DNA from: the human T2T-CHM13v2.0 reference genome, Homo sapiens
Assembly: GCF_009914755.1 (NCBI RefSeq)
Contig: NC_060936.1
Strand: one strand, 5' to 3'
DNA: 64,000 nucleotides
A program made the position numbers and the translations under genes. The first letter of the stretch is position 1, and every line of letters starts with the position of its first letter. Below the pieces are notes generated by a model that ran no database searches, was not told the DNA's origin, and saw nothing but the letters and a program-made list of their open reading frames with translations. Below, piece by piece: positions 46,568 through 54,652 of this stretch.

Positions 46568-47097
46568 CTGAGGAATAGAAGGAGCCTCGCTGGTGATTGG
46601 CTTGTCATCCTGGCCACGCCACCACCCTCCTTCACGTGACTGTGTGCCTCTAGGTGGTTCTAATCATGGTGTGAAGCTGGAAGGACTTGGCGTTTGTTGA
46701 ATGAGTAAGCAAGATGGTGAATGATGAGAGGGGGGTGGCTGGAGGCCTGCTGCACAGGCCATTGTGCAAATGGGGCCACTGGCACTCTGCCTCCATGCCC
46801 ATCTTTTGGGCTGAGAACAAACAGGGAGAATGAACCTTGCTGCTGGCAGACCCCTTTTTCTTTTCTTTTTTTTTTTTTTAAATTTTATTATTATTATACT
46901 TTAAGTTTCAGGGTACATGTGCACAATGTGCAGGTTTGTTACACATGTATACATGTGCCATGTTGGTGTGCTGCACCCATCAACTCGTCATTTAGCATTA
47001 GATATATCTCCTAATGCTATCCCTCCCCACTCCCCCTACCCCACAACAGTCCCCGGTGTGTGATGTTCCCCTTCCTGTGTCCATGTGTTCTCATTGT

Positions 47098-50917
<3,820 letters not shown>

Positions 50918-50980
50918 TATTATGTCAGTTGGTTATTTTGCTCATTAGTTGATGCAGTTTCTTCCTAGCCTCGATGGTCT

Positions 50981-51996
50981 TTACAATTTGGCATGTTTTT
51001 GCAGTGGCTGGTACTGGTTGTTCCTTTCCATGTTTAGTGCTTCTTCCTTCAGGAGCTCTTTTAGGACAGGCCTGGTGGTGACAAAATCTCTCAGCATTTG
51101 CTTGTCTGTAAAGTATTTTATTTCTCCTTCACTTATGAAGCTTAGTTTGGCTGGATATGAAATTCTGGGTTGAAAATTCTTTTCTTTAAGAATGTTGAAT
51201 ATTGCCCCCCACTCTCTTCTGGCTTGTAGAGTTTCTGCCAAGAGATCAGCTGTTAGTCTGATGTGCTTCCCTTTGTGGGTAACCCGACCTTTCTCTCTGG
51301 CTGCCCTTAACATTTTTTCCTTCATTTCAACTTTGGTGAATCTGGCAATTATGTGTCTTGGAGTTGCTCTTCTCGAGGATTATCTCTGTGGTGTTCTCTG
51401 TATTTCCTGAATTTGAATGTTGGCCTGCCTTGCTAGATTGGGGAAGTTCTCCTGGATAATATCCTGCAGAGTGTTTTCCAACTTGGTTCCATTCTCCCCG
51501 TCACTTTCAGGTACACCAAACAGACGTAGGTTTGGTCTTTTCACATAGTCCCATATTTCTTGGAGGCTTTGTTTCTTTTTATTCTTTTTTCTCTAAACTT
51601 CTCTTCTCACTTCATTTCATTCATTTCGTCTTCCATCACTGATACCCTTTCTTCCAGTTGATCGCAGCGGCTACTGAGGCTTGTGCATTCGTCACGTAGT
51701 TCTCGTGCCTTGGTTTTCAGCTCCATCAGGTCCTTTAAGGACTTCTTTGCATTGGTTATTCTAGTTATCCATTCATCTAATTTTTTTTCAAAGTGTTTAA
51801 CTTCTTTGCCATTGGTTCAAACTTCCTCCTGTAGCTAGGAGTAGTTTGATCGTCTGAAGCCTTCTTCTCTCAACTTGTCAAAGTCATTCTCTGTCCAGCT
51901 TTGTTCTGTTGCTGGTGAGGAGCTGCGTTCCTTTGGAGGAGGAGAGGAGCTCTGATTTTTAGAGTTTCCAGTTTTTCTGCTCTGTTTTTTCCCCAT
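50981..51996 (-). pseudogene. L1 ORF1p (RNA-binding), frameshifted
   Basis: ATGGGGAAAAAACAGAGCAG start at 51996. Span is 1016 nt, not a multiple of 3. Only the C-terminal MKEKMLRAAREKGRVTH...QKHAKL appears as an ORF in the track. Confidence 0.9.
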
Positions 51997-53022
51997 CTTT
52001 GTGGTTTTATCTACCTTTGGTCTTTGATGATGGTGACGTACAGATGGGTTTTTGGTGTTGATGTTCTTCTTGTTTGTTAGTTTTCCTTCTAACAGGACCC
52101 TCAGCTGCAGGTCTCTTGGAGTTTGCTAGAGGTCCACTCCAGACCCTGTTTGCCTGGATATCAGCAGTGGTGGCTGCAGAACAGTGGATATTGGTGAACC
52201 GCAAAGGCTGCTGCCTGATCGTTCCTCTGGAAGTTTTGTCTCAGAGGAGTACCTGGCTGTGTGAGGTGTCAGTCTGCCCCTACTGGGGTGTGCCTCCCAG
52301 TTAGGCTACTCGGGGGTCAGGGACCCACTTGAGGAGGCAGTCTGCCCATTCTCAGATCTCAAGCTGCATGCTGGGAGAAGCACTACTCTCTTCAAAGCTA
52401 TCAGACAGGGACATTTAAGTCTGCAGAGGTTACTGTTGTCCTTTTGTTTGTCTGTGCCCTGCTCCCAGAGGTGGAGCCTACAGAGGCAGGCAGGCAGGCC
52501 TCCTTGAGCTGTGGTGGGCTCCACCCAGTTCGAGCTTCTTGGCTGCTTTGTTTACCTAATCTAGTCTCAGCAATGGCAGGCGCCCCTCCCCCAGCCTTGT
52601 TGCCTCCTTGCAGTTTGATCTCAGACTTCTGTGCTAGCAATGAGCAAGACTCCGTGGGCATAGGACCCTCCGAGGCAGGTGCAGGATATAATCTCCTGGT
52701 GTGCCATTTGTTAAGCCCATTGGGAAAGTGCAGTAGTAGGGTGGGAGTGACCTGATTTTCCAGGTGCCATCTGTCATCCCTTTCTTAGACTAGGAAAGGG
52801 AATTCCCTGACCCCTTGCGCTTCCCGGGTGAGGCGATGCCTCGACCTGCTTCGGCTTGCGCACGGTGCACTGCACCCACTGTCCTGCACCCACTGTCTGG
52901 CACTCCCCAGTGAGATGAACCCAGTACCTCAGTTGGAAATGCAGAAATCACCCATCTTCTGGGTAGCTCACGCTGGGAGCTGTAGACCAGAGCTGTTCCT
53001 ATTTGGCCATCTTCGCTCCTCC

Positions 53023-53425
53023 TGCTATTGTTTATAAGAATGAGCAATCAAAACAGGCATGTACCACAGTTTCTTAATCTACTTGTCCATTGGCAAACAC
53101 TTAGGGTGTTTCCATATCTTGGCTATTGTGAATAATGCTCATTTTTGTTTATAGGAGATCAATTTATGGTATCTTCTCTCTCTCTGTCCTTCTCACTCTT
53201 TGCCATGGGGTGATGCAGCAAGAAGGCCCTCCTCAGATTCTTGTCCCTCAGTCTTGGATGTTCTAGCACGATCACTAGGTGAGGTCTCACAATAGGCCAT
53301 TTGCAAGCTGAGGAGCAAGGAAGCCAGTCTGAGTCCCAAATCTGAAGAACCTGGAGTCTACCTTCGAAGGCAGGAAGCATCCAGTATGGGAGAAAGATAT
53401 AGACCTGAAGATAAAGCTAGTTGCA
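53023..53425 (-). other. 5'-transduced mosaic leader of the L1 (MLT2A exon + MaLR piece + unique piece + old L1 piece + short flank)
   Basis: Lies inside the direct repeat gcagaccccttt (46846-46857 / 53426-53437). It has abrupt junctions between unrelated repeat fragments. Confidence 0.75.
53268..53425 (-). mobile_element. MLT2A-family (ERVL) LTR fragment, from about the TSS to the splice donor
   Basis: Minus strand reads atctttctcccatactggatgcttcctgccttcgaa...ttgctcctcagcttgcaaatggcctattgtgagacctcacctagtgatcgt, matching remembered MLT2A1/A2 consensus. Confidence 0.8.
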
Positions 53426-54175
53426 GCAGACCCCTTTCTCTATCACAAAGTGTCAGATTAGTAAGACTCATTCTTGGGCACAGATGCCCAGGGAAGCCCC
53501 TTGAGGTCATTCTATGAATGAAGTAATGTTGCCTGCTGAAATCATGAAAAGCAACCCAGGAGTAAGTATATCTCCCATTGGCAAAAACTGCTCAGACTTC
53601 AAAGCACCCCATTCTATCACCATTGCAGAATCTCTATGGGTATGTGACTGCCCCAACCCCATTCAATTCTAAAATTTCCATGGCCACAAGCACTCCTTTT
53701 GGTTATTTAGTAAACACCAGATACTTCAGGCATGTTTAGGGGGGACTGGGGACAAAATCACAATATATAGTTGATGCTTCATTATTCTCTATTAGTAGAT
53801 AATGAAACATCTATTATCTACTGCTGTTTACCTCTTTGGACATTTTTTAGCTCATGATTACTTAGATGAGAACAAGTTTTGAAAGGGAGAGGATGAAGGG
53901 AGGAGTTGAGTCTTTGGGGAGTGTGGTCCAAGGAGGCAAAGGGGACTAACAGGCAGGTGGGAAGGTGTGGCCGGTGAAGAGTCTCACACCATGGATGGCA
54001 TTTGCTGTTTGAAGGAAAGGCACTCAGCAGGAAAGGCTAAGGAGAAAGACCCCTTCTGCTGTGAGGATTTCAAATCACACTTGCTTCATTTTACCCAGTT
54101 TGTAGGTGGTAGAGAAATAGGGAGATTTCAGGACCAGGCAAAATAATATTTGTTTCTTCTGCTACAAGAATTATT

Positions 54176-54652
<477 letters not shown>

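What the first reader, a model, noticed from the sequence alone, without database searches (positions are those of the whole stretch)
53130..53290. Leader junctions fall where repeat consensus splice sites are expected
Seen on the minus strand: ...cacctagtgatcgt|gctagaacatccaaga... and ...aaaatgag|cattattcacaatagccaaga. From remembered consensus, MLT2A continues gatcgt|GTGAGT (donor), the antisense MaLR piece is normally preceded by ttctggAG|, and the L1 piece by tgcAG|. Three breakpoints coinciding with GT/AG signals is separate evidence for splicing rather than random deletion.
Basis: partly seen in the sequence, partly recalled or inferred. Interest (0 to 1): 0.7.

Follow-up and report, generated by a model that had tools for sequence, protein, structure and literature searches.

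The report
Spliced LTR transcript carried by L1
An old full-length L1 jumping gene on chromosome 12 carries at its front a copy of a spliced RNA that began in a retroviral LTR on chromosome 4, a rare but already described kind of L1 insertion.

Summary
On the minus strand, a full-length L1PA and a 399-nt leader lie between one pair of target-site duplications (exact 12-mer, 15/16 over 16 nt) with one A-rich tail, so they arrived in one L1-mediated event.

The first 365 nt of the leader map, in order and orientation, to four blocks on chr4:23.63-23.65 Mb (92-94% identity, against 74-90% for other copies of the same repeats). The blocks are separated by 5.8, 6.0 and 7.5 kb. In the chr4 source each junction lies exactly at GT...AG.

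The leader starts inside a 431-nt MLT2A-type LTR, 34 nt downstream of an AATAAA, and leaves it at the LTR's own GTGAGT donor.

Two further junctions are not splice junctions. Block 4 stops mid-sequence, then come 34 nt that match single-copy chr5 DNA (33/34), then L1 base ~3. How the leader met the L1 is open: serial 5' transduction through two unfixed L1 copies, or RNA-level recombination.

This is a new member of a known kind (L1 5' chimeras with spliced lncRNA/mRNA exons; 17 catalogued). It is not in that catalogue's readable tables.

The parts
53426..53441 (-). 5' copy of the target-site duplication
   Evidence: Exact 12-mer AAAGGGGTCTGC at 53437-53426 is repeated at 46857-46846; 0 of 500 shuffles reach 12. 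15/16 identity over 16 nt (D6).
53422..53425 (-). 4 nt (TGCA) between the TSD and the start of chr4 homology; origin unassigned
   Evidence: No match to the chr4 sequence upstream of the leader start.
53268..53421 (-). Leader exon 1, 154 nt, from inside an MLT2A-type LTR at C4:23650316-23650163
   Evidence: 143/154 identical; other copies of the family 83-92%. Source continues GTGAGT. Starts at LTR position 206 of 431, 34 nt after an AATAAA.
53173..53267 (-). Leader exon 2, 95 nt, repeat-derived (MaLR by recall), from C4:23644374-23644280
   Evidence: 88/95 identical; other family copies 74-93% over shorter stretches. Source has ...ttctgaAG before it and GTAAGA after it.
53138..53172 (-).
   Evidence: 33/35 identical; the only other copy in the genome at up to 3 mismatches. 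Source has ...caactttAG before it and GTATCT after it.
53057..53137 (-). Leader block 4, 81 nt, from an old sense-oriented L1 ORF2 fragment at C4:23630776-23630700; begins at an acceptor and ends at a non-splice break
   Evidence: 71 of 77 aligned positions identical, plus a 4-nt indel. Source has ...ttattgcAG before it; after it the source continues ATACCATGG, the old L1, with no GT.
53023..53056 (-). 34-nt tag matching single-copy DNA at C5:59173639-59173672 (+)
   Evidence: 33/34; the only match in the genome at up to 3 mismatches. The chr5 region has no other match in the genome. No AG or GT at its edges and no L1 beside it in chr5.
46880..53022 (-). Full-length L1PA element, starting at about base 3 of the 5' UTR, with reading frames broken
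   Evidence: 5' UTR collinear over 1-923 with many L1s at 88-92%. Only ORF fragments of 101-297 aa remain. 94.1% identical to a chr4 L1 over 5.3 kb.
46862..46879 (-). A-rich tail
   Evidence: Read directly.
46846..46861 (-). 3' copy of the target-site duplication
   Evidence: D6.

Best explanation
CORE (about 0.9). A transcript started inside an MLT2A-type solo-size LTR on chr4 (T2T C4:23,650,316, minus strand), about 34 nt downstream of a TATA-like AATAAA. It used the LTR's own GTGAGT donor, which lies 17 nt upstream of the LTR's second AATAAA. It was then spliced through three canonical GT-AG introns (5,788, 5,973 and 7,495 nt) onto a repeat-derived exon, a 35-nt unique exon and an acceptor inside an old L1 fragment. 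This spliced RNA, joined at its 3' side to a full-length L1PA RNA, was reverse-transcribed and integrated on chr12 in one target-primed event, with one A-rich tail and one pair of TSDs. The L1 therefore carries a 399-nt intron-less 5' leader. Leader-to-source divergence (K2P 0.076) puts the event roughly 17-30 Myr ago; the rate used is recalled. The element is now dead and has no surviving descendants that carry the leader.

JOINING STEP (inferred, about 0.5). This was serial 5' transduction in cis. An L1 once sat at chr5:59,173,672 and picked up 34 nt of its upstream flank. A daughter of it landed in the chr4 old-L1 fragment, 81 nt downstream of the acceptor. It was then read through from the LTR promoter. 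Both intermediate L1 copies were never fixed and are absent today.
For: One event: an exact 12-nt TSD (15/16 over 16 nt) lies immediately before the leader and immediately after the A-rich tail, and 0 of 500 shuffles reach 12. The sequence next to the L1 5' end is not repeated after the tail.

Source locus: the best non-self genome hits of the three leader pieces searched are collinear on the C4 minus strand within 20 kb. blastn against the 60-kb chr4 region then resolves four blocks. Identities are 143/154, 88/95, 33/35 and 71/77, against 74-92% for other copies of the same repeat families. Exon 3 is unique in the genome apart from these two places.

Splice signals: GT and AG sit at all six intron ends in the source, with pyrimidine-rich stretches before the acceptors.

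Family check: GT follows the donor position in 9 of 9 LTR copies.

LTR anatomy: the LTR spans 23650521-23650091 by homology to 8 of 8 other copies. The leader starts at LTR position 206, AATAAA lies at 172 and 377, and the donor is at 360.

Cis model: the architecture 'acceptor, short flank, L1 base ~1' matches the documented RAP1GDS1/L1PA2 case, which has a cryptic acceptor 15 bp upstream of its source L1. A YY/RRRR endonuclease-type site (TT/AAGG) lies 19 nt before the chr4 break. This is weak support, because 26% of random points in the region have one.
Against: No L1 is present today at the chr4 break or at the chr5 site, so the cis model needs two lost intermediates.

The full-length L1 that does lie 1.2 kb downstream of block 4 on chr4 is not the parent. 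Its 5' UTR is only 87.8% identical, with a ~125-nt length difference, while at least 8 other L1s match at 92% over the full length. Its own nearest relatives are 94-95% identical.

The chr5 junction has only a one-off endonuclease-type site, read by eye.

Junction 3 is canonical only if the last exon base changed after copying (A in chr4, G in chr12). Without that substitution the junction would shift by 1 nt to a non-canonical AG...CA.

Four nucleotides at the very 5' end are unexplained.

Family names, the promoter activity of this LTR and the expression of the chr4 transcript were not testable here. A strict DUX4-type motif (recalled) is absent from the LTR and from 8 of 8 other copies; only a 10/11 near-match is present, in chr4 and 3 of the 8.
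Confidence: 0.85

Rival explanations
1. Same spliced chr4 RNA, but joined to the L1 in trans. During one TPRT event the L1 reverse transcriptase reached the 5' end of an L1 RNA, jumped to a chr5-derived RNA fragment (34 nt), and jumped again into exon 4 of the spliced chr4 RNA. Alternatively, the three RNAs were ligated before reverse transcription. This rivals only the joining step, not the splicing.
For: No L1 is present at either presumed intermediate site, so no lost elements are needed. The extant chr4 L1 is excluded as parent. Law & Burns report full-length L1PA insertions fused to spliced exons of genes that hold no source L1 (MAP3K13), and consider recombination of two RNAs. Tripartite chimeras by double template jumps are described in a fungus (title and start of the abstract only, PMC2104539). 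RtcB ligation of U6 to L1 RNA is also described (listing only, PMC6789731).
Against: It needs two independent switches or ligations, one of them involving a 34-nt internal piece of an otherwise unremarkable single-copy region. Both junctions are clean, with no extra or overlapping bases. No A-tract marks the end of the chr4 RNA. The break lies only 81 nt after an acceptor, which is the layout expected for cis read-through. There are no splice signals at these two junctions, so trans-splicing in particular is not supported.
Confidence: 0.4
2. No RNA splicing. The chr12 arrangement arose at the DNA level, either by independent nested insertions of MLT2A, MaLR and L1 pieces followed by random deletions, or by a segmental copy from chr4 with deletions.
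For: All blocks but one are repeat-derived, so the adjacency of such pieces is common in the genome. The junctions have 1-2 nt of ambiguity.
Against: The blocks are much closer to one chr4 locus than to any other family member, and they are collinear there. Three deletions of 5.8-7.5 kb would each have to start at GT and end at AG to the nucleotide. The whole unit ends in an A-rich tail and is flanked by a TSD. The unique 35-nt exon exists only at these two places.
Confidence: 0.02
3. The leader is a separate processed retrocopy of the chr4 lncRNA, and the L1 later inserted next to it by chance.
For: Processed retrocopies of spliced RNAs are common.
Against: There is no A-tract at the 3' end of the leader. 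There is no TSD around the L1 alone: the bases before its 5' end are not repeated after its tail. The only TSD pair encloses leader plus L1.
Confidence: 0.03

Closest known systems
L1 5' chimeric insertions with spliced mRNA/lncRNA exons (Law & Burns, bioRxiv 10.1101/2025.02.02.635956; Cell Genomics 2026, PMC13174262; sections 24 and 25 of the preprint read)
   Same: A near full-length L1PA in sense orientation carries first exons of a transcript with the introns removed, a TSD enclosing both, and an A-tail. The leader starts at the transcript's first exon. In most cases no source L1 is found in the donor gene.
   Different: Here the donor is an unannotated LTR-initiated transcript made almost wholly of repeats, which a screen for 'unique (non-repetitive)' upstream sequence would miss. 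Four exon blocks are carried. The last block does not end at a donor, and a 34-nt piece from a third chromosome lies between it and the L1. '1290' (the expected start of the hg38 coordinate) and 'MLT2A' occur 0 times in the 6 readable supplementary files; mmc7.pdf could not be read.
RAP1GDS1/L1PA2 promoter co-option (same paper, section 25)
   Same: An upstream promoter, splicing onto a cryptic acceptor a short way upstream of an L1, read-through into the L1, then retrotransposition.
   Different: There the source L1 is extant, lacks part of its promoter (a SpIRE), and left several daughters. Here the L1 5' UTR is complete, the presumed source is absent, and no daughter carries the leader.
SVA 5' transduction / exon trapping (for example the MAST2 exon in SVA_F1; review PMC4859970, passages read)
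   Same: Upstream transcription and splicing give a retrotransposon a new 5' end.
   Different: [quoted passage not shown] In SVA_F1 the splicing goes into the element; here the L1 is intact from base ~3.
MLT2A1-headed TE-TE chimeric RNAs of the human 8-cell embryo (review PMC13690279, passages read; PMC10616205, passages read)
   Same: A conserved LTR-derived 5' head is spliced to variable tails made of other transposable elements, including L1.
   Different: Those are present-day RNAs. This is a genomic fossil of such an RNA. Whether this particular LTR is MLT2A1, and whether it is active at genome activation, was not tested.
U6/L1 and other template-switch or ligation chimeras (PMC6789731, PMC2104539; listings only)
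   Same: Several RNAs are copied into one insertion, flanked by one TSD.
   Different: The classical cases join the 3' end of a small RNA to a 5'-truncated L1. Here the 5' partner is a spliced Pol II transcript broken inside an exon, and the L1 is full length.

Membership tests
L1-mediated (TPRT) insertion with 5' transduced/chimeric leader | One target-site duplication encloses leader plus L1 | tested here: met
   Exact 12-mer, 15/16 over 16 nt, at 53426-53441 and 46846-46861; 0 of 500 shuffles reach 12.
L1-mediated (TPRT) insertion with 5' transduced/chimeric leader | A-tail at the 3' end only, none inside | tested here: met
   A-rich tail at 46862-46879; no A-tract between leader and L1.
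L1-mediated (TPRT) insertion with 5' transduced/chimeric leader | Endonuclease-type target site (YYYY/RR on the nicked strand) | tested here: inconclusive
   With the 16-nt TSD the site reads CTCT/AT, one purine short of the consensus. Sites ending in /AT are listed among real insertions in PMC4859970 Table 1.
L1-mediated (TPRT) insertion with 5' transduced/chimeric leader | The leader maps to another locus, in sense orientation relative to the L1 | tested here: met
   Four blocks map to C4:23650316-23630700, collinear and on the same strand as read.
L1-mediated (TPRT) insertion with 5' transduced/chimeric leader | A source L1 lies directly downstream of the transduced flank (classical cis 5' transduction) | tested here: not met
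   There is no L1 at the chr4 break or the chr5 site. The L1 1.2 kb downstream on chr4 belongs to a different subfamily. An unfixed, lost source cannot be excluded.
Processed (spliced) RNA copy | The blocks are separated in the source by introns with GT...AG exactly at the block ends | tested here: met
   3 of 3 introns (5,788, 5,973 and 7,495 nt). Junction 3 needs one substitution at the last exon base.
LTR (MLT2A/HERVL)-promoted chimeric transcript | The 5' end lies inside the LTR downstream of a TATA-like box, with exit through the LTR's own donor | tested here: met
   Start at LTR position 206 of 431, AATAAA at 172, donor at 360. The donor GT is present in 9 of 9 copies.
LTR (MLT2A/HERVL)-promoted chimeric transcript | The repeat is classified as MLT2A1/2 by Dfam or RepeatMasker | not testable with these tools
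Shown here is only that it is a ~431-nt dispersed repeat, with 39 other copies among the 40 hits scored.
LTR (MLT2A/HERVL)-promoted chimeric transcript | DUX4-type binding motif / activity at genome activation | tested here: inconclusive
   The strict recalled motif is found in 0 of 9 copies. A 10/11 near-match lies at LTR position 144 in chr4 and in 3 of 8 other copies. Expression was not testable.
SpIRE (L1 spliced within its own 5' UTR) | Internal deletion of the L1 5' UTR between L1 splice sites | tested here: not met
   The 5' UTR is collinear over 1-923 with many other L1s.
Trans-spliced exon/L1 chimera (proposed by Law & Burns) | The last leader exon ends exactly at its splice donor where it meets the L1 | tested here: not met
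   Block 4 ends inside continuous old-L1 sequence with no GT, and the 34-nt chr5 piece has no AG or GT at its edges.

The most novel reading that the evidence does not exclude
The insertion records a three-stop itinerary of one L1 lineage (chr5 to chr4 to chr12), written as nested 5' transductions, with both source copies lost from the population. At the chr4 stop the L1 was expressed from a HERVL-type (MLT2A) LTR, the promoter class that today fires at human embryonic genome activation. This would be fossil evidence, from a catarrhine ancestor some 17-30 Myr ago, that cleavage-stage LTR promoters can drive heritable L1 retrotransposition independently of the L1's own 5' UTR, which is targeted by KRAB zinc-finger repressors.
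Probability: 0.2. Interest if true: 0.6.

Novelty: new member of a known kind. Interest (0 to 1): 0.4.

Why it matters
5' transductions are called 'almost non-existent' for L1 in the review PMC4859970, and only 17 L1 chimeras with spliced mRNA/lncRNA exons are catalogued for hg38. This one adds a case whose leader is built from repeats, a class that screens for unique upstream sequence would overlook, so the true number may be higher.

It also preserves, as DNA, the exon structure of an LTR-initiated TE-TE chimeric RNA from an ancestral primate germline or early embryo. That structure includes the LTR start site and the donor.

The 34-nt chr5 tag gives a concrete handle on an open question, namely whether such chimeras form in cis from lost source elements or by RNA recombination. 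The element itself is dead, left no leader-bearing descendants, and lies in intergenic DNA, so no present-day function is implied.

Tried and rejected
1. The extant chr4 L1 (C4:23629469-23623438, 1.2 kb downstream of block 4, same strand) as source. Rejected. Its 5' flank differs from the 34-nt tag. Its 5' UTR is 87.8% identical with a ~125-nt length difference, while at least 8 other L1s are 92% identical over the full length. Its own nearest relatives are 94-95% identical, which marks a different subfamily.

2. The 34-nt tag as a fifth chr4 exon. Rejected. There is no match longer than 12 nt in the 60-kb chr4 region, and the only genome match is on chr5.

3. The chr5 region as a repeat or duplicated segment. 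Rejected: it has no other match in the genome.

4. Sibling insertions carrying the leader. None were found. Only the 40 best candidates are scored per DNA search, so weak or partial copies could be missed.

5. Strict DUX4-type motif in the LTR. Not found.

6. Endonuclease-type sites at the presumed intermediate insertion points. One strict site at chr4, but 26% of random points have one, so this is uninformative.

7. A fuzzy-regex scan timed out and was replaced by blastn-short.

9. The phrase '5 transduction' did not work as a literature search term (0 occurrences in the L1 papers among the 15 listed, one in an unrelated parvovirus paper).

10. Coordinate look-ups for the chr4 source in the Law & Burns supplements gave nothing, but may have failed on the colon in the coordinates.

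Full report
OBSERVATION. On the minus strand the two quoted strings are present, with breaks at 53268|53267 and 53138|53137. Downstream on the same strand a full-length L1 begins at 53022 (GGAGGAGCGAAGATGG...) and ends in an A-rich tail at 46879-46862.

ONE INSERTION. An exact 12-mer (AAAGGGGTCTGC) lies at 53437-53426, just upstream of the first leader block, and again at 46857-46846, directly after the tail. In 500 shuffles of the two flanks none reached 12 (maximum 11, mean 6.7). The repeat finder reports the same pair as 16 nt at 15/16 (D6). The bases next to the L1 5' end are not repeated after the tail. The 6,568-nt unit from 53425 to 46858 is therefore one L1-type integration: 4 unassigned nt, a 399-nt leader, the L1 and the tail.

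SOURCE LOCUS. Searching the window's own assembly with the leader gave, as best non-self hits, three places on contig 4 on the same strand and in the same order: C4:23650162-23650316 (93%), 23644277-23644374 (92%) and 23630700-23630778 (88%). Other members of the same repeat families scored 74-92%.

I fetched C4:23600001-23660000 and ran blastn against it.

Global alignments give 143/154, 88/95, 33/35 and 71/77 (plus one 4-nt indel). That is 26 substitutions in 361 positions, K2P 0.076. The 35-nt exon 3 occurs nowhere else in the genome at up to 3 mismatches.

SPLICE SITES IN THE SOURCE.
- Intron 1 (5,788 nt): ...GATCGT|GTGAGTCAAT ... TTGTTCTGAAG|GCTAGAAC.
- Intron 2 (5,973 nt): ...GAGAGAAG|GTAAGAAAGC ... 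TATATGTCAACTTTAG|ATACCATA.
- Intron 3 (7,495 nt): ...AAAATGA(A)|GTATCTAG ... TTTTTATTGCAG|CATTATTC.

All six intron ends are GT or AG at exactly the positions where the chr12 copy changes block. Intron lengths are my arithmetic from the coordinates.

One caveat concerns the last base of exon 3, which is A in chr4 and G in chr12. If no substitution is allowed, the junction slides by one base to a non-canonical AG...CA. At 7% divergence a single change is unremarkable, and G is the usual base at that position of a donor (established knowledge).

The 1-2 nt of overlap at the junctions (G at junction 1; AG at junctions 2 and 3) is what the exon-AG|GT...AG|exon consensus itself produces. It is not deletion-type microhomology.

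No Dfam was available, so I read individual copies instead of a consensus.
- LTR family: 9 copies including the source, and 9 of 9 have GT(GAGT/C) after GATC[G/A]T.
- Exon-2 repeat family: of 5 copies, 4 show AG at the position before the block (source ttctgaAG; one ttctggAG; two ...gAG). In the fifth the position was not displayed.
- L1: of 5 fetched copies, 4 have AG and one has AT before CATTATT/CACTATT. The window's own L1 has GG there.

The recalled signals are therefore right. I did not test the family names themselves.

LTR ANATOMY. Pairwise blastn of the chr4 locus against 8 other copies bounds the LTR at 23650521-23650091 (431 nt). 8 of 8 copies align, and 6 of 8 start at 23650521.
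- The leader's first chr4-templated base is LTR position 206.
- An AATAAA lies at 172-177, that is 34 nt upstream, the usual place for a TATA-like box.
- The donor G is at position 360.
- A second AATAAA lies at 377.

The transcript thus starts where a U3/R boundary is expected. It leaves the LTR 17 nt before what is most simply read as the LTR's own polyadenylation signal (inference).

A strict version of the recalled DUX4-type motif is absent from all 9 copies. A 10/11 near-match sits at position 144 in chr4 and in 3 of 8 others, which is inconclusive.

THE TWO NON-SPLICE JUNCTIONS. Block 4 ends at ...GTGGTACATGC (53057). In chr4 the old L1 fragment simply continues (ATACCATGGAATAAT...), with no GT.

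The next 34 nt (53056-53023) have no match longer than 12 nt in the 60-kb chr4 region. They match C5:59173639-59173672 (+) at 33/34, which is the only hit in the genome at up to 3 mismatches. The chr5 region has no other match in the genome. It has no AG before or GT after the 34 nt, and it holds no L1. The L1 follows directly, from about its third base. Neither junction shows overlapping or extra bases.

THE NEIGHBOURING chr4 L1 IS NOT THE PARENT. A full-length L1 lies 1.2 kb downstream of block 4 on the same strand (C4:23629469-23623438; 94.1% over 5.3 kb, but 87.8% in the 5' UTR with a ~125-nt length difference). Its 5' flank is unrelated to the tag. At least 8 other L1s match the chr12 5' UTR at 92% over its full length (only 40 of 7,491 candidates were scored). 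The chr4 L1's own nearest relatives are 94-95% identical (40 of 6,125 candidates scored). The two L1s belong to different subfamilies. The region is L1-rich, so the proximity is best read as coincidence.

MECHANISM. Shown:
- a single TPRT-type insertion;
- a leader copied from a chr4 transcript that had lost three GT-AG introns;
- a start inside an LTR.

Inferred:
- the LTR was the promoter;
- the event took place in the germline or early embryo, which is necessary for inheritance;
- the age is about 17-30 Myr, from K2P 0.076 halved and divided by recalled neutral rates of 1.25-2.2e-9 per site per year.

How the leader became joined to the L1 is open. I favour serial 5' transduction in cis (about 0.5). 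In that account an L1 at the chr5 site acquired 34 nt of flank. A daughter inserted 81 nt downstream of the chr4 acceptor and was read through from the LTR. Both copies were unfixed and are lost.

Points for it are the layout 'acceptor, short flank, L1 base ~1', which mirrors the proven RAP1GDS1/L1PA2 case, and a TT/AAGG site 19 nt before the chr4 break. That site is weak evidence, since 26% of random points have one.

The alternative (about 0.4) is RNA-level recombination by two template switches or ligations. It needs no lost elements but does need two rare joins, one of them with a 34-nt internal fragment. Trans-splicing at these two junctions is not supported, because no splice signals are present.

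COMPARISON WITH WHAT IS KNOWN. [quoted passage not shown]

Law & Burns (preprint sections 24-25 read; abstract) catalogue 17 hg38 L1 insertions with spliced mRNA/lncRNA exons at the 5' end. These are mostly near full-length L1PA in sense orientation, and most have no source L1 in the donor gene. The catalogue includes one proven cis case.

The present element has all the defining marks of that class. In the six readable supplementary files of the published version, '1290' (the start of the expected hg38 coordinate, which I estimated from the TMEM132D offset in the hub's table together with a recalled hg38 position), '12903', '12904' and 'MLT2A' occur 0 times. One file (mmc7.pdf) could not be read. 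The element is therefore apparently not listed. This fits their screen for non-repetitive upstream sequence.

Present-day MLT2A1-headed chimeric RNAs with TE tails in human 8-cell embryos are described in PMC13690279 and PMC10616205 (passages read). The leader here has that architecture.

VERDICT. The splicing interpretation is supported and extended: three splice junctions rather than two, an identified source locus, a defined start site, and two further junctions of another kind. The element is a new member of a known, rare kind. It is dead: its ORFs are in fragments of 101-297 aa. No descendants carrying the leader were found. It lies in intergenic DNA.

Noticed in passing
L025 (C4:23620001-23630000), about C4:23629520-23629470 and 23623440-23623400: The extant chr4 L1 may itself carry about 45 nt of extra 5' sequence. 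A 9-nt word, AAATATTTA, lies about 52 nt upstream of its first base and again just after its A-rich 3' end, and could be its TSD. The word is AT-rich and short, so chance is not excluded.
   Followed up: no
outside the window, G000:C12:129092466-129093383 (-), about 17 kb upstream of the element on the same strand: This is the best non-self match of the chr12 L1 5' UTR genome-wide (92%, 1327 bits). It is only marginally better than the next hits (1325, 1323 bits), so it is probably just another copy of the same subfamily.
   Followed up: partly
G000:C5:59390121-59391041 (+): An L1 of the same subfamily (91% in the 5' UTR) lies 216 kb downstream of the chr5 site that matches the 34-nt tag, on the same strand. 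It is too far away to be the tag's source as it stands.
   Followed up: no
C4:23630640-23630620 (minus strand), about 75 nt downstream of the block-4 break: An AATAAA lies in the old L1 fragment and could be the natural polyadenylation signal of the chr4 transcript's last exon.
   Followed up: no
window 54180-54470 (minus strand): An Alu-like element lies upstream of the insertion site, with a T-run at its upstream end as read on the minus strand (so it points the other way). It is unrelated to the finding.
   Followed up: no
window 52122-52246: About 125 nt of the chr12 L1 5' region have no counterpart in the chr4 L1. By recall, L1PA subfamilies differ by a ~129-nt 5' UTR segment bound by ZNF93. 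Whether this is that segment was not tested.
   Followed up: no
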